A stretch of DNA of 64,000 nucleotides from assembly GCA_013335095.1 (NCBI GenBank), contig JAAXWF010000001.1, forward strand, positions 445,984 to 509,983, in the 5' to 3' direction. A program made the position numbers. Below, piece by piece: positions 18,001 through 24,000 of this stretch. Origin of the DNA: a candidate division WWE3 bacterium. Its GTDB lineage: Bacteria > Patescibacteriota > 4484-211 > GCA-002791395. The number at the start of each line of letters is the position of its first letter. The first letter of the stretch is position 1.

Positions 18001-21000
18001 AGACGGCTATGCTGTGGGGGGAAGCGTGGGCGCAGCTGTCAGGCCGTCGGTTTGGTCTGGCGGCAGAAGCACATTATGGTATGGTGTATGTCTTCACCAT
18101 CTGCGCTTTTAAGCGCTACGACGAGACTCGTGCTCGTTTTGAGCGAATTAAAGCGCAGGGTGATTCCGGGGTTTTCGACCTTACCGTGCTCGATGCGTTG
18201 GGCATCATCACTGCTGAAAGCGACAGTGAGGAACTGGTCCGCAAGTGGGACCGCTTCATAGTTGGCTCGACGCAGTACCATACAATGGCGGATGTCGCCG
18301 CTGAACTGGATCAGATCATCGAGCGCCAGCATCAGCGGGCGATGGCGACGATGCTCAACATGCTTATCCAAACGACACTGGCTCTTGAGCCGCGTCGTTT
18401 CGGGAGAGGGACACTCGCCTTCGCTATGAGCGTTTTGTCCGCGAAGCATGCGTCACCGGCCCGGTTACTGCGGGTCGAGCAGGTGATCGAAGACTACTTT
18501 AGCTCAAAGTCTTCTTCGCCTGAGATGTAGGGTTCATTCTAATCGGAGGCCCGGACAGTTTTACTGTTCGGGCTTTTTTTTGACATGATACTATTACGGT
18601 ATGAAACTTCTTGTAGGGCTGGGCAATCCCGATGAGTCCTATGCAAAAACTCGACACAATGTGGGGCACCTGTTAATCGATGAAATTAATCAGCTTGAAG
18701 GTTGGAAATTAGAAAAGAATAATACGTTCATGAATTCATCGGGTAAAGCTGTTCGAGAATTGTTATCTTACTATCATTTAACTCCTCAGGATCTTGTTGT
18801 TCTTCATGATGATTGGGTGTTTGAACTGGGCACATTCAAAGTTCAACGTAATCGTGGCGCGAGTGGGCATAATGGGGTTCAAAACATTATTGATGTTCTT
18901 GGGACAAAAGATTTTTGGCGAATACGGGTAGGTATTGGGGCTAAACCAGATCACACAATATTAGGCGATTATGTTCTGAGTAATTTTAAAACACAGGAAT
19001 TAAATGCGATAAAGGCACTATCAATACCAATTGTAGATGCATTAAAGCAAATCCCATTCGAGGGCTGAATCTTTACTCTTGTGCTCTGCTTTTTCAAGCA
19101 TAGAATAATAACGTATGTCTGAAGTTTTATACCGAAAATACCGACCGCATGCATTTGACGAAGTTTGTGGACAAGACCACATAAAACGTATTTTGCAATC
19201 AGCTTTAGCTGCCGATCAGGTTGCTCATGCATACTTGTTTTCTGGACCTCGTGGTGTAGGTAAAACCAGTATCGCCCGAATCCTTGCCCGGGCATTGGAC
19301 GTACAGGGCGTGGATCTTGTTGAAATCGATGCTGCCAGCCATCGTGGTATCGAAGATGTCCGCGAAATAAGAGAGTCGGTTAATTTCCATCCAACTCAAG
19401 GTGAGCGAAAACTGTATATCCTCGATGAAGTCCACATGTTAACCAACGAAGCATTTAACGCGTTGCTAAAAACTCTAGAAGAACCACCTTCATTTGTCTA
19501 TTTTGTCCTTTGTACGACAGAATCACACAAGGTTCCTCTAACAATATTGTCTAGGTGTCAGCGGTTGAATTTCATTAGTCCTACGACCGATGAAATGGCA
19601 GGATTTTTAAAAAAGATTGCGGCAGACGAGGGCTCTGTTTTGGATGATGAAGCCTCTCGTATTATAGTCGAATTAGCCGAGGGATCATTTCGCGATGCAC
19701 TTGTCATTTTAGATCAAGCGCTTCGTTCGGCATCGTCTTTAGAAATTACGGTAGCTACAATGGAGTCGGGGATTGGACTAACCCCGTCTACACAAATAAC
19801 TGAATTGTTCAACTTGATTGTACAAAAGTCAAGACAAGGCTTTGTGGATAAGGTTAATTCGCTTAGAAATGGCGGTGCAGATATGAAGGTTGTGTCGAGC
19901 AAGATTGTTGCTCGATTGTCGGAGGAGATTCTCAAAGGCGAGGTTGAATCGGCCGCTAGCGATAATTTTTTAACATTATTAGATTATCTGCTCGAGTCTC
20001 GTCGTCAGATGCAATATGTGAGTTCACCATGGATGCCTTTTGTGGTCGCTGTATTAAAATGGATGGATGGTTCCCCGCAGACAAAAAAAAATCCAGTAAC
20101 TCCGCTATCACACCCAAATCCTAAAGTAGAAGAATCAAAACAAGTAGAAGCAACTGATCCTCAGATAACTTCCAAACGGGAAGATGTTATTTCAAATCAA
20201 GATCCTCAAGCTGCGCCTATAAATCAACCTTTTACTAACTCGACGATTGAAGTTTCAAAATCAATAGAGATACCAATTCCACCAATTAATGTCGTCCTCT
20301 CTGAATCCGGTTCATTAAGCAACGATATTATAAGTATTTGGCCCCAAGTTATGGATGAAATTAAAAAGGAAAAGCGTACCGTTGAAGCTCTTTTAAAGGA
20401 TTGTACCGTTCTTGGGCTAAATGAATCAGGCCAACTTTTATTGGACTTTAAATTTGAATTCCACAAGAAAAAAGTAGAAGAAAACAATAATCGGGCAGTT
20501 CTCGAAGGTGTGGTCGGCCGCCTTCTTGGCCGAAATATTACCGTGGTATGTCAGTGGAAAAAGGGTGATCGCCAAATGTCTACCGATGTGGATATTTTGA
20601 TAGAAGATCCGAATGCAGTTATCGTAGATCGATCTGCGTATGGAAGTGGTAAACCCGGAAAAGCTAAAAGTGATTTTCCCATGGCTCGAAGAAAAGAGCA
20701 CGCTCCTACAAGCTCCTCTGGTGATAAAGATCTCCTTGCTATGGCTCAAGAAGTGTTTGGCGGTCAAATGATCGAGTAGATAATTTCATCCCTGTGCTAC
20801 AATAAACCCATAGTCAATTAAGTCGGTTCATATACACAGGAGGGTCCTATGGACGCAGGTGCTGATGTTAGCAGACGGAGTGAGGATACTGAGTCTCTAC
20901 CGTGGAGAGATGTGATAAAACAAATCCCTCTCTATCGTTGGGTCCAGCTACTCGCCATTACGTTGGCAGTGCTGGATGTCTATTTCCTTGGCCTGCGGGT

Positions 21001-24000
21001 GATTACCCGGCCGCTTCACTTCTGGCTGACTGGCCAGGGTAATAAGCCTCTGATCGACTATCTGGGGACCGGGGGATGGTTCGTGATACTCATCTCGGTT
21101 GGGCTGTTTTTTGTCGCCCGCCAGATGTATCAGGGACAGCCCCACATCGTGATCACACCAACTAGTCTTGATGCTGAAGGTCGCGAGGATGAGCACGGGC
21201 GGTTGGAAGATGCGGCTCCTTCGGTGTACGACTCGATTGATATCGGGGCGGCCGGAGAAGAGTTGACACATCTGGCTCAGGTCGCCTTGGCGGGATGGGC
21301 GATGGTCTTCAATTCTCGTGGCGGTGTCGGGGATGCGGGGCGGTGGATCGTTAAGATCGTCGTCGACGCACCGACTCATGATGGAACCTCGGCTAAAGTC
21401 GGGCTTAATGTGGCTAACCCTGATCAGCCCGGATCGCGTCAAGCGCGGATCGGGGTGGTGCTATATTGCCCGCCCTCGGCTGACTCGATGGACGACTGGC
21501 GTGTCCACGCTGTTCATATCGGCGATGACACCCGCCAGCTGATCTCGTATCGGTTCAACGATCAGAAAATCGTCGGGGTGCAGGGAACATTCCCTGCATG
21601 GCTAGAGGTTAGTCACAGTGAGCTGGATGATGGGGACCTTATGCCCGGTGCATAACGTTCTGGTCTCCACTCTTTAAATCGGCGTATAAAAAGCAAGCCT
21701 GGGCAGTCATCGTACTGTCCGGGCTTTTTTGTTGTTTGGGATATAATCGTGGTGGGTTTATCCGTTTATGCAAGGAGGATCGGCGCGATGAAGATTAAAA
21801 CATCGCCGGAAGGAACTACTAAAGTTCCTGTGGGTATCTGGGCTTTGATCGGGGTGACCTGTCTTAGTGTCGTAACTACGATACTATGGCCATGGGGCGC
21901 GGCCACGATTTTTAGCATAATCTTAGGGATTTCCCTTATCGTTGCCAGCCTGATGTGGATGTCTAACCCTTCGCAGCATCGTCTTGTGGATCCTTCGTTA
22001 TTCATGACCAGGTTTACCGTTGAAGCACTGTCAACGATCGTCCAGATCTTGAATCGTCATGGTGTTGAGGCAATCTCGGTAAAAGAGATTCAAATAGTCT
22101 TCGGTGTTGATCCATCAGCATCGCATACCATCGAGATCTTGATCGATGTTGATCATGATCCTATCAAACCGTATTGTTTAAGGTGCATCCTCATGGAAAA
22201 ACCTACAATCCGGCCAGTTGGCTTTAAATGGGTGGTGACGTCAATCACCGGATCAATCCCGGCTGATTCAAAAGATCCTTGGCAATTGGTTCGAGTTGGT
22301 GATCACCTAATTAGGTCGGCCGGCGAATTCCCATACACCAAGGAAGACGTATTAGTTTCGCCCGTTGGTTCGTAAAATTAACCCCGCTAAATCTATCAGA
22401 AGTTTAGCGGGGAATTATAAAACTACTTGCTTTGATCGTGTTATAATCATCCAAGATTTAACCTCTATGATTGATAAATTAAAACAGTTAAACGAACTTC
22501 GCCGACAATCACAACAAATGCAAAAAGATCTTGACTCTGAGGTTCTCGAAGTCGAGCATAAGGGGGTAACCGTTGTCGTTACTGCTGGAATGAAAGTTAA
22601 TTCCATAAATACAAATGGTCGTAGCGATGATGATGTAACAAGTGCTGTTAATAAAGCGCTCCAAGAAGCACAAAAGATTGCTGCTAAGAAAATGCGCAGT
22701 CAACTCGGTGCCATGGGATTAGATCTTCCGGGATTCTAATAGTTTTCTTAATTTTTCTGATCTTACTAAAAAACAAAAAGTTAGCTGGTTTAGACGATGC
22801 CTGTTATAGTAATTAGGTTATGAAAGTCGCCCGTCCGATTGCGCGTGTCATCGAAGCGCTGCAAAGTCTTCCCGGTATTGGTCCTCGTTCGGCTGAAAGG
22901 CTTGCGTATCATCTGTGGCGACTTCCCGAAGATCAGGTTCAACAAATCGCTGATGATATTAAAGGACTAAAAACTATGACCGTTTCATGTCGTGAATGTT
23001 ACAACATTTCCGAATCTGAGTTATGTTGGATATGCGAAGATACTGGTCGTAATCCATCCCTTGTTATGGTCGTTGAAGAACCTTTAGACGTCTCCGCTAT
23101 GGAGCGGACCGGTAAGTTTGATGGTTTATACCATGTACTTGGTGGTGTGCTTGATCCAATTCGAGGAATCGGACCCGATGAATTACGAACATATGAACTA
23201 ATGGATCGCATTCAATTGCGATTGGAAAAAGGTTCTGAATCAATCGAAATCGTTTTAGCGACAAATCCATCTACCGAAGGCGAGACTACGGCCATCTATT
23301 TACGGAAAATGATCGTTGAGCGATTTCCTGGACAACCAATTAAAGTTACCCGAATAGCACGGGGTTTGCCCGTCGGGAGTGATCTTGAATATGCTGATCC
23401 GATGACATTATCTCGTTCTCTTGAAGGGCGGATTGAGTACTAGGTCGTTGTTTTGTGTTGCCTTTTGCGGGTAATCTATGTTTGTATGATCTGAAAAATC
23501 CAGTTATAGTAAATAAGTGAATTATCAGTTTGTGTACCAAGGAATTTCCGGGCGTTTTACTCAATCTCCGTGGACCGGAACTCAGCGACTATTTATTAAC
23601 GGTTCCGAGATTTTTAAGGGCGATCATGAATGGTTAACCCCGCAAGGTTGGCATGTTAAATCCGTACGCCAGTTACTCTTATTTCCTAAACTTATTATTG
23701 ATGGTCATGACCTAGTGCTTGTTTCTATGCGTTGGTGGGAATGGGGATTAGTGTTTCTTCCAATGATTTGGATATTTTTCGGCGGAATTATACCGACAAT
23801 GATTGGAATGGCTGGGATTTATTTAAATGCATCGTTATTTGCGTCGCACGATTTACCAACCGGCACCAAATTAATGTTTTCATCTAGTTTACTGGTTAGT
23901 GAGTTCGTGTTTTTAATCCTGGTTTCGTATGTGCTGAATGGATTATCTCCAACAGAAGGTAGTCAGCTTACAAAGCAGCTAATCTTTATAATGGATCTTT

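What the first reader, a model, noticed from the sequence alone, without database searches (positions are those of the whole stretch)
20780..22466. High-GC two-gene insert splits the conserved dnaX-ybaB-recR operon
dnaX (19115-20779), ybaB (22467-22739) and recR (22820-23443) form one of the most conserved bacterial gene strings. Here ~1.7 kb carrying two high-GC membrane-protein genes (20849-21655 and 21788-22375) sits exactly between dnaX and ybaB. Each has a GGAGG RBS and a terminator hairpin (21697-21733 and 22378-22408). This is a clean insertion signature at a known syntenic junction.
Basis: partly seen in the sequence, partly recalled or inferred. Interest (0 to 1): 0.65.

Follow-up and report, generated by a model that had tools for sequence, protein, structure and literature searches.

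The report
GC-rich orphan genes split dnaX-ybaB
Two real but function-unknown membrane-protein genes sit between dnaX and ybaB in this candidate-division WWE3 genome. They are not a fresh foreign insert: a sister genome has very diverged copies at the same spot that are equally GC-rich, and similar GC-rich orphan genes are wedged between housekeeping genes all along this window.

Summary
ORF1 is 268 aa with GC 0.57. ORF2 is 195 aa with GC only 0.46. The reading as a clean, recent insertion is only partly right.

More distant WWE3-like relatives do have a compact dnaX-ybaB-recR, so the pair was gained in this lineage. But a sister genome (L086; YbaB 88%, RecR 85% identical) carries orthologues of both ORFs at the same place. 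They are 27% and 26-29% identical and equally GC-rich, although silent sites between the two genomes are saturated. The gain is therefore old, and the genes are under purifying selection but evolve about nine times faster than their neighbours. Their high GC is being maintained rather than fading.

There are no target duplications, terminal repeats, mobility genes or donor homologues. The block is also not unique. At least five such blocks interrupt a 30-kb stretch collinear with other WWE3 genomes, and about 16% of the window is GC3 0.47-0.72 ORFs with no known domains.

Each gene has its own promoter-like motif, RBS and downstream hairpin, which uncouples ybaB-recR from dnaX. Function is unknown. 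I infer that both are proteins anchored in the membrane by a two-helix hairpin.

The parts
19115..20779 (+). dnaX (DNA polymerase III gamma/tau), the left backbone gene
   Evidence: Pfam PF13177 1.7e-32, AAA, DNAX_ATPase_lid. 43/40/38% identical to DnaX of L082/L083/L084. The C-terminal 111 aa are 62-67% identical to L086.
20795..20803 (+). Extended -10-like motif TGcTACAAT upstream of ORF1, inside a 22-nt block (20793-20814) conserved with L086
   Evidence: blastn 22 nt at 91% identity and alignment A5, in a spacer otherwise unalignable although silent sites are saturated. Promoter function is inferred.
20839..20843 (+). GGAGG ribosome-binding site, 5 nt before the ORF1 ATG
   Evidence: Read directly from the sequence.
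20849..21655 (+). ORF1: 268-aa clade-restricted protein with an N-terminal two-helix membrane hairpin and a C-terminal alpha/beta domain. GC 0.566, GC3 0.60.
   Evidence: Codon-position pattern GC1 .665 > GC3 .602 > GC2 .431. Only one homologue in 1.84e9 proteins, P0123, E 2.5e-11, at the same genomic position in L086. Hydrophobic segments at about residues 31 and 68. The AF2 model is low-confidence (pLDDT 49.5).
21695..21736 (+). Intrinsic terminator after ORF1 (13-bp stem plus T-run)
   Evidence: A hairpin plus T-run is at the equivalent place in L086.
21742..21747 (+). TATAAT -10-like hexamer upstream of ORF2
   Evidence: Conserved with L086 in alignment A6. Function inferred.
21773..21778 (+). 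AGGAGG ribosome-binding site, 9 nt before the ORF2 ATG
   Evidence: Read directly from the sequence.
21788..22375 (+). ORF2: 195-aa clade-restricted protein with an N-terminal two-helix membrane hairpin and a C-terminal alpha/beta domain. GC 0.464, GC3 0.48.
   Evidence: Only a self hit among 5.8e9 proteins. The positional orthologue in L086 (1532-2065, 177 aa) is 25.5% identical by blastp, E 5e-13, or 29% by MAFFT. AF2 pLDDT is 43.3.
22382..22412 (+). Perfect 10-bp hairpin after ORF2, with no U-tract
   Evidence: In L086 a hairpin with a T-run occupies this place.
22439..22447 (+). Extended -10 motif TGTTATAAT, 19 nt upstream of ybaB
   Evidence: Conserved with L086 (TGGTATAAT) in alignment A7. 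The nucleotide alignment between the two genomes resumes at 22435. Function inferred.
22467..22739 (+). ybaB/ebfC, the right backbone gene
   Evidence: PF02575, 30.6 bits. 88% identical to L086, 58-65% to L084/L082. The upstream in-frame extension is not conserved.
22820..23443 (+). recR
   Evidence: RecR_HhH, RecR_ZnF, Toprim_4 and RecR_C. 85% identical to L086.
23517..24002 (+). ORF3: 161-aa membrane protein with normal GC (0.40). It is also extra relative to L082/L084 and is conserved in L086.
   Evidence: 59% identical to L086 3134-3625. Absent between recR and cysS in L082 and L084.
24069..24758 (-). ORF4: 229-aa GC-rich (0.516) orphan gene of the same class, in the neighbouring recR|cysS junction
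   Evidence: 33% identical to L086 3665-4366(-), E 2e-45. No Pfam, PHROG, PADLOC or NCBIfam hit.

Best explanation
ORF1 and ORF2 are genuine protein-coding genes restricted to a small sub-lineage of candidate division WWE3 (CPR/Patescibacteria). They entered the dnaX|ybaB junction in the common ancestor of this genome and the L086 genome. That was long enough ago for silent sites to have become saturated since the two genomes split.

They belong to a genome-wide class of GC-rich (GC3 about 0.5-0.7), domain-less, rapidly evolving accessory genes. These genes sit singly or in groups of two to four in the spacers between AT-rich housekeeping genes, whose order is otherwise unchanged.

Each of the two genes is its own transcription unit, with a -10-like motif, a strong Shine-Dalgarno sequence, the ORF and a downstream hairpin. 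The insert therefore stops read-through from dnaX, and ybaB-recR is driven by its own extended -10 promoter in the last 30 nt of the spacer.

The products are probably anchored in the membrane by an N-terminal helical hairpin, with both ends and a C-terminal domain (about 170 aa in ORF1, about 130 aa in ORF2) in the cytoplasm. Their fold is under purifying selection but their sequence changes about nine times faster than their neighbours'. I read this as an accessory envelope-associated role, in conflict or host interaction. Their high GC is actively maintained by an unidentified force and is not a leftover of foreign origin.

Shown: gene identities, positions, orthology, divergence, composition, and conservation of the regulatory motifs.
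Inferred: timing of the gain, independent transcription, topology, selection regime, GC maintenance.
Speculative: biological role.
For: - Coding: codon-position GC pattern. Intact ORFs in two genomes, with protein-level homology despite saturated silent sites: ORF1-P0123 E 2.5e-11 against 1.84e9 proteins, pairwise 6e-18; ORF2 5e-13.
- Same position in the sister genome: L086 reads dnaX-C-terminus | ORF1 orthologue | ORF2 orthologue | ybaB | recR | ORF3 orthologue | ORF4 orthologue(-) | cysS.
- Gain in this lineage: compact dnaX-ybaB in L084/85, L087/88, L089, L090 and L077.
- Rate contrast: dN 0.92-0.94 for ORF1/2 and 0.83 for ORF4, against 0.08-0.10 for ybaB/recR.
- Saturation and GC maintenance: backbone 4-fold identity .328 against .268 expected (residual .08, CI -.005 to .175). 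4-fold-site GC is .57 in the high class of both genomes against .36-.40 in the backbone. Leftover foreign GC would need an ancestral GC3 of at least .97.
- GC elevation is limited to the ORF bodies (spacers mostly .28-.39; the terminator-bearing ORF1-ORF2 spacer is .48).
- Genome-wide class: five extra blocks in the 4672-34542 stretch collinear with L084/L082. GC3 is bimodal. 0 of 11 high-GC3 ORFs against 23 of 27 low-GC3 ORFs are conserved in relatives, Fisher p 1.1e-6. No high-class ORF tested has a Pfam hit, and none of those also run against PHROG, PADLOC or NCBIfam has a hit there, whereas most backbone ORFs tested do.
- Regulatory units conserved.
- Membrane hairpins; conserved in the orthologues.
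Against: - Only one sister contig (4.5 kb) supports the orthology and GC-maintenance arguments, which rest on three high-GC genes.
- The relaxation calculation assumes a simple stationary model and that backbone 4-fold sites reflect the neutral equilibrium. At the upper confidence limit, a donor with GC3 of about 0.97 is just conceivable.
- The promoter scan did not call these promoters, because they lack a -35 at canonical spacing.
- Hairpin 2 lacks a U-tract.
- The structural models are low-confidence, so the architecture and topology are weak.
- No expression data exist.
- The functional role has no direct evidence. PADLOC, PHROG, Pfam, NCBIfam and PDB searches were all negative.
Confidence: 0.65

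Rival explanations
1. Recent horizontal insertion of a two-gene cassette from a GC-rich donor into the dnaX-ybaB spacer.
For: The composition is atypical (ORF1 GC3 0.60 against 0.33). The pair is absent from the more distant WWE3-like relatives. The genes carry their own expression signals.
Against: The sister genome has diverged orthologues at the same site, with silent sites saturated. No donor homologues were found in 5.8e9 or 1.84e9 proteins, phages, plasmids or IMG/VR. There are no target duplications, inverted repeats, integrase or tRNA. The spacers and promoter motifs look native and AT-rich.
Confidence: 0.06
2. The pair is ancestral to WWE3 and was deleted repeatedly in the compact lineages, so nothing was inserted here.
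For: L082, the relative with the closest full-length DnaX, also has two small membrane-protein ORFs at this junction. Genome streamlining is common in CPR bacteria.
Against: The L082 ORFs are on the opposite strand, have backbone-like GC (about 0.42-0.44) and show no similarity to ORF1/2. At least four compact WWE3-like lineages, plus bacteria at large, would require many independent precise deletions. No ORF1/2 homologues exist anywhere else.
Confidence: 0.1
3. The GC-rich stretches are non-coding or junk DNA with chance ORFs, or an assembly or binning chimera.
For: GC-rich DNA has few stop codons. A 164-aa antisense ORF also exists (20948-21442). No domain hits.
Against: The chance of 268 stop-free codons at this composition is about 7e-5 (my calculation). 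Protein-level conservation survives saturated divergence, and the ORFs are intact in both genomes. RBS, promoter motif and terminators are conserved. The independent assembly is identical, and a different sample has the same layout.
Confidence: 0.03
4. The loci are hypervariable and are continually overwritten by recombination with divergent alleles circulating in the population or on an unsampled GC-rich element. Extreme divergence and high GC would both be by-products, through GC-biased gene conversion or re-seeding. This refines rather than replaces the main explanation.
For: High GC is kept at silent sites in both lineages. Divergence is extreme next to conserved flanks. In many bacteria, recombining genes have higher GC3 (PMC4450053).
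Against: The GC elevation stops at the ORF borders, whereas conversion tracts would not respect them. There are no population data. No extra copies or alleles were found in any database.
Confidence: 0.25

Closest known systems
Bacterial ORFan (lineage-restricted) genes, as reviewed in PMC12315717 and PMC3514957
   Same: No homologues outside a very narrow clade. Short to medium length, fast-evolving and of unknown function. Located between conserved genes.
   Different: ORFans are reported as AT-richer than, or equal to, the rest of the genome, and fast-diverging genes drift towards AT (PMC12315717). These genes are 0.15-0.35 higher in GC3 than the backbone and stay so across saturating divergence.
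Horizontally acquired genomic islands or islets
   Same: Atypical base composition. Interruption of conserved synteny. Absent from more distant relatives.
   Different: One to four genes per site at many sites. No integrase, tRNA, direct repeats or donor homologues. Orthologues are present at the same sites in a sister genome. The composition is not ameliorating.
dnaX-ybaB(ebfC)-recR gene string of E. coli and Borrelia burgdorferi (PMC9610160)
   Same: Same three genes in the same order and orientation. ybaB is followed closely by recR.
   Different: In E. coli and Borrelia, ybaB is expressed from promoters upstream of or inside dnaX. Here two terminator-bearing genes intervene, and ybaB has its own conserved extended -10 motif. 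In this window recR is 80 nt downstream of ybaB and does not overlap it.
GC-biased gene conversion signature in recombining bacterial genes (PMC4450053)
   Same: Locally raised GC3 relative to the genome's apparent mutational equilibrium.
   Different: The effect reported there is modest and regional. Here the shift is large (+0.27 in GC3), gene-body-limited and confined to orphan genes. Recombination was not measured.

Membership tests
dnaX-ybaB-recR conserved gene string | DnaX with clamp-loader AAA+ / DNA_pol3_delta2 domains | tested here: met
   PF13177 1.7e-32, PF00004, PF22608
dnaX-ybaB-recR conserved gene string | YbaB/EbfC DNA-binding family protein downstream of dnaX | tested here: met
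   PF02575, 30.6 bits against a cutoff of 25.5
dnaX-ybaB-recR conserved gene string | RecR immediately after ybaB | tested here: met
   RecR_HhH, RecR_ZnF, Toprim_4 and RecR_C; 80-nt spacer
dnaX-ybaB-recR conserved gene string | dnaX and ybaB adjacent or co-transcribed | tested here: not met
   1,687 nt with two ORFs, one canonical terminator and one hairpin lie between them. Transcription itself was not measured.
Horizontally acquired genomic island | Base composition deviating from the host genome | tested here: met
   ORF1 GC3 0.60 and ORF2 GC3 0.48, against a backbone of 0.27-0.42
Horizontally acquired genomic island | Absent at that site in close relatives | tested here: not met
   Present in the closest available relative, L086 (YbaB 88% identical), and absent only from relatives with RecR 61% identical or less
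Horizontally acquired genomic island | Mobility hallmarks: integrase or transposase, tRNA target, flanking direct or inverted repeats | tested here: not met
   No significant flanking repeats, no tRNA in the window, no Pfam or PHROG hits on the ORFs
Horizontally acquired genomic island | Homologues in a plausible donor | tested here: not met
   Only self and L086 hits. Nothing in phages, plasmids or IMG/VR.
Bacterial ORFan genes | No detectable homologues outside a narrow lineage | tested here: met
Bacterial ORFan genes | Evidence that the ORF is a real gene | tested here: met
   Orthologue retained with an intact ORF and detectable protein similarity despite saturated silent sites. RBS and conserved promoter motif.
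Bacterial ORFan genes | Typical composition: AT-richer than, or equal to, conserved genes | tested here: not met
   GC-richer by 0.05-0.15 overall, and by 0.15-0.27 at GC3
Intrinsic (Rho-independent) terminator | GC-rich hairpin followed directly by a U-run | tested here: met
   21695-21726 followed by TTTTTGTTGTT. For the second hairpin, 22382-22412, the U-run is missing, so that one does not meet the feature.
Known anti-phage defence systems (PADLOC models) | Match to a defence-protein HMM | tested here: not met
   0 families at E up to 0.05 for ORF1, ORF2 and their orthologues
Integron gene cassette | attC recombination site after each ORF and a nearby integron integrase | not tested
   The downstream hairpins are short simple stems that look like terminators. 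The ORFs scanned with Pfam gave no integrase-type hit, but no attC model was run.

The most novel reading that the evidence does not exclude
This WWE3 sub-lineage keeps two compositional compartments in one small genome. One is an AT-rich (GC3 about 0.33) conserved backbone. The other is a large set of clade-specific, very fast-evolving genes held at GC3 about 0.6 in both descendant lineages long after silent sites saturated, with the GC excess confined to the ORF bodies. That would imply a gene-specific GC-raising force acting on orphan genes, the opposite of the usual AT-rich ORFan rule. Candidate forces are GC-biased conversion at recombination-prone loci, codon-level selection, or recurrent re-seeding from an unsampled GC-rich partner element.
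Probability: 0.3. Interest if true: 0.7.

Novelty: new variant of a known kind. Interest (0 to 1): 0.5.

Why it matters
For annotation, the dnaX-ybaB-recR string is intact in order but transcriptionally split here. The intervening genes are real, clade-specific membrane proteins and are neither contamination nor a fresh island.

For genome evolution, the case runs against two textbook expectations: that orphan and fast-evolving bacterial genes are AT-rich, and that atypical composition marks recent transfer and then ameliorates. If the pattern holds genome-wide and in more members of the clade, it offers a tractable natural system. A genome with a contig of at least 536 kb, with roughly one gene in three or four in the GC-rich class, could be used to ask what sets GC content gene by gene in bacteria, and where CPR-specific proteins come from.

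Tried and rejected
The genome-contig scan with DnaX returned only relatives 51% identical or less, and no WWE3. Two metagenome scans found nothing closer than 54% RecR. 90%-identity clusters of ten conserved proteins are all limited to this genome. Insertion boundaries therefore cannot be defined at nucleotide level.
- Flanking repeats: nothing beyond chance-level short matches.
- Paralogy among island ORFs: none, except 28780-29190 with 29346-29759.
- ORF1 against ORF2 by profile-profile comparison: E 0.16, not significant. The similar architecture and the shared G-x-FP-[YA] motif remain a hint only.
- The two small ORFs at the same junction in L082: unrelated, opposite strand, backbone-like GC.
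- An N-terminal extension of ybaB into the spacer: not conserved.
- The promoter-associated motif TAYAATAAMCCCATAG as a marker of a regulon: only one copy in the window, which is not more than chance.
- Domain, defence, phage and structure searches: Pfam, PHROGs, PADLOC, NCBIfam and PDB sequence profiles all negative.
- Phage, plasmid and IMG/VR searches: negative.
- Rfam and tRNA scans: nothing in the window.
- AlphaFold2 single-sequence models: pLDDT 49.5 and 43.3. These are too poor for a fold search, so none was run.
- dN/dS: dS is saturated or undefined, so no ratio is reported.

Full report
**What is in the sequence.** The window is a contig of a candidate division WWE3 (CPR/Patescibacteria) metagenome-assembled genome. 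NCBI calls the two ORF products HGA91_02505 and HGA91_02510, on a 536-kb contig. Pfam confirms pth (18601-19068), dnaX (19115-20779), ybaB (22467-22739), recR (22820-23443) and cysS (24917-26314; Pfam families from the gene table).

- GGAGG lies 5 nt before the ORF1 ATG and AGGAGG lies 9 nt before the ORF2 ATG.
- The hairpin after ORF1 (21695-21726 plus a T-run) is a canonical intrinsic terminator.
- The hairpin after ORF2 (22382-22412) is a perfect 10-bp stem without a U-tract.
- ORF1 is clearly GC-rich: GC 0.566, GC1/2/3 = .665/.431/.602.
- ORF2 is only moderately GC-rich: GC 0.464, GC3 .480. Backbone genes have GC 0.36-0.45 and GC3 0.27-0.42.
- An independent Logan assembly (L001) is 100% identical over 14,451 nt spanning the region, so the junctions are not a scaffolding artefact.

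**Are they genes, and whose?** Neither ORF matches Pfam, PHROGs, PADLOC, NCBIfam or PDB sequences. Neither matches phage or plasmid records, and ORF1 has no relative in IMG/VR contigs. A word-indexed search of 5.8 billion proteins returned only the proteins themselves.

An exhaustive phmmer of ORF1 against 1.84 billion representatives found one real relative, P0123 (313 aa, E 2.5e-11, 27% identity). Its contig is L086, 4.5 kb, from a different sequencing run. It has the same layout as the window: dnaX C-terminus | P0123 | 177-aa ORF | ybaB | recR | 163-aa ORF | 233-aa ORF (minus strand) | start of cysS.

Pairwise comparison shows that L086 is a sister genome:

| Gene | Identity, window vs L086 | Note |
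|---|---|---|
| YbaB | 88% | backbone |
| RecR | 85% | backbone |
| DnaX C-terminus | 62% | backbone |
| ORF3 (23517-24002) | 59% | extra, normal GC |
| ORF4 (24069-24758, minus strand) | 33% (E 2e-45) | extra, GC-rich |
| ORF1 | 27.5% (E 6e-18) | GC-rich |
| ORF2 | 25.5% (E 5e-13) | GC-rich |

The L086 orthologues of ORF1, ORF2 and ORF4 are GC-rich too, at 0.576, 0.545 and 0.540.

**How old, and how constrained?** Between the two genomes, 4-fold degenerate sites in backbone genes are essentially randomised. Over 189 sites, identity is .328 against .268 expected from composition (residual .08, 95% CI -.005 to .175). NG86 dS is 1.7 or more, or undefined.

A sequence evolving without constraint would have lost all similarity. 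Intact ORFs with 26-33% identity, and conserved Trp, Gly, Pro and aromatic positions, therefore mean purifying selection on a protein. Yet dN is 0.92-0.94 for ORF1/2 and 0.83 for ORF4, against 0.08-0.10 for ybaB and recR. That is about nine times faster.

**Insertion or loss?**
- L084/L085 (a WWE3 genome, GCA_020429745.1) have a 36-nt dnaX-ybaB gap.
- In L087 and L090, ybaB starts 44 nt after dnaX.
- L089 is also compact at this junction, but has a GIY-YIG-like ORF between ybaB and recR.
- L082, the relative with the closest full-length DnaX (43%), has two unrelated small membrane ORFs at the junction, on the opposite strand and with backbone-like GC (about 0.42-0.44).

The most parsimonious reading is a gain in the common ancestor of the window genome and L086. 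No flanking repeats, tRNA or mobility genes are present. No relative is close enough to define the breakpoints.

**Not a one-off.** Window 4672-34542 is collinear, gene for gene, with L084, and partly with L082 and L083. The shared order is PBP2, dprA, M50 peptidase, RRF, EF-Ts, S2, topA, S21, ybeY, DAGK, pth, dnaX, ybaB, recR, cysS, PaaX-like, S6, SSB, S18, two conserved hypotheticals, CtpB, HtrA.

The window is about 9 kb longer because of five extra blocks: 6709-7733, 15711-18600, 20780-22466, 23444-24916 and 28330-29875.

GC3 across the window is bimodal. The backbone has .27-.42, and about 22 ORFs have .47-.72. A curated set of 17 of these makes up 15.9% of the window. In the collinear stretch, 0 of 11 high-GC3 ORFs but 23 of 27 low-GC3 ORFs have homologues in the relatives (Fisher p 1.1e-6). 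None of the high-GC ORFs tested has a Pfam hit, and none of those also run against PHROG, PADLOC or NCBIfam has a hit there. Most backbone ORFs tested have Pfam domains. The high-GC ORFs are not paralogues of one another, apart from one local pair.

**The compositional puzzle.** 4-fold-site GC is .57 in the high class of both genomes, against .36-.40 in the backbone. With the measured saturation, a simple relaxation model leaves at most about 29-42% of any initial compositional excess per lineage. Today's +0.27 would therefore need an ancestral GC3 of at least 0.97, and 1.28 at the point estimate, which is impossible.

The excess is confined to the ORF bodies. The flanking spacers are .28-.39 GC, apart from the ORF1-ORF2 spacer, which holds the GC-rich terminator and is .48. 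Amino-acid usage shifts too: Arg 7.6% against 4.9%, and Lys 2.3% against 6.6%. On the coding strand at 4-fold sites, the high class has A .18, C .26, G .32, T .24. The backbone has A .33, C .19, G .17, T .32. The same pattern is seen in L086.

The high GC is thus a maintained property, not un-ameliorated foreign DNA. This contrasts with the literature, in which ORFans are AT-richer or no different and fast-diverging genes drift towards AT (PMC12315717, PMC3514957). GC-biased gene conversion in recombining genes (PMC4450053) is a candidate force, but it does not obviously explain the sharp ORF-limited borders. I could not test it.

**Transcriptional consequences (inferred).** A 22-nt block containing TGcTACAAT (20793-20814) is 91% identical in L086, in an otherwise unalignable spacer. 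A TATAAT before ORF2 and a TGnTATAAT 19 nt before ybaB are also conserved. Hairpins with T-runs follow both orthologues in L086.

Each gene therefore looks like its own unit, and ybaB-recR is uncoupled from dnaX. This differs from E. coli and Borrelia, where ybaB is expressed from promoters upstream of or within dnaX (PMC9610160). The consensus promoter scan did not call these sites, because they lack a canonical -35.

**What the proteins may be.**
- Both have two N-terminal hydrophobic helices, conserved in the orthologues.
- Positive charges are concentrated in the N-terminal tails, which suggests an N-in/C-in hairpin with a cytoplasmic C-terminal domain. This is my reading of the sequences.
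- The AlphaFold2 single-sequence models are poor (pLDDT 49.5 and 43.3), but both predict a membrane hairpin, then a helix, then six beta strands.
- Both families end in a G-x-FP-[YA] motif.
- A profile-profile comparison is not significant (E 0.16), so tandem paralogy is only a hint.
- Function is unknown. Fast evolution under retained constraint and membrane anchoring fit an envelope-associated conflict or host-interaction role, but nothing here tests that.

**Verdict.** It is wrong in its implication of a clean, recent, foreign and singular event. The pair is one instance of a pervasive class of old, fast-evolving, GC-rich orphan genes in this WWE3 sub-lineage. As orphan genes they are a known kind. 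The stable GC-rich regime is an unusual variant and is worth following up once more genomes of the clade exist.

Noticed in passing
window 6709-7733, 15711-18600, 23444-24916, 28330-29875; also about 1-2300, 11788-12093, 34641-35066, 45822-48757, 50015-50800: Further GC-rich (GC3 .47-.72) ORFs with no domain hits sit between AT-rich conserved genes. The first four blocks are extra relative to the collinear WWE3 relatives L084 and L082.
   Followed up: partly
window 24069-24758 (-) and L086 3665-4366 (-): ORF4 and its orthologue (33% identical) share a conserved C-x-C-P-R-C ... C cysteine motif near the C-terminus. This may be a small zinc-binding element. There is no Pfam hit.
   Followed up: no
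window 28780-29190 and 29346-29759: Two adjacent GC-rich ORFs share a C-terminal segment (47-59% identity, E 3e-10). This is the only paralogy found among the island ORFs.
   Followed up: partly
window 48800-49990 (-), 53358-55373, 55374-57398, 58052-60685: A cluster of dockerin-tagged secreted proteins in a CPR genome: alginate lyase, a DUF5060/apiosidase-like protein, a CBM4_9 protein and a beta-helix/PA14 protein.
   Followed up: no
L089 8406-8699 (-): In this WWE3-like relative, a 97-aa ORF that looks like a GIY-YIG nuclease (YIYILTN...YVGVT...) sits between ybaB and recR. This is another junction of the same gene string invaded by a small gene.
   Followed up: no
L082 1814-2439 (-): The relative with the closest full-length DnaX (43%) has two small (101 and 105 aa) multi-helix membrane ORFs between dnaX and ybaB. 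They are on the opposite strand, have backbone-like GC (about 0.42-0.44) and are unrelated to ORF1/2.
   Followed up: partly
L086 about 375-392 and about 1455-1472; window 20798-20813: The motif TAYAATAAMCCCATAG (a -10 hexamer plus downstream bases) precedes both the ORF1 and ORF2 orthologues in L086. In the window it precedes only ORF1, and one copy is not more than chance there.
   Followed up: partly
window 20849-21655 vs 21788-22375: ORF1 and ORF2 have the same predicted architecture (membrane hairpin, helix, six strands), and both families end in G-x-FP-[YA]. They may be old tandem duplicates, but hhalign gives E 0.16, which is not significant.
   Followed up: partly
window 20948-21442 (-): A 164-aa antisense ORF lies inside ORF1, with mirrored codon positions. 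It is most likely a by-product of high GC, and the gene callers did not call it.
   Followed up: no
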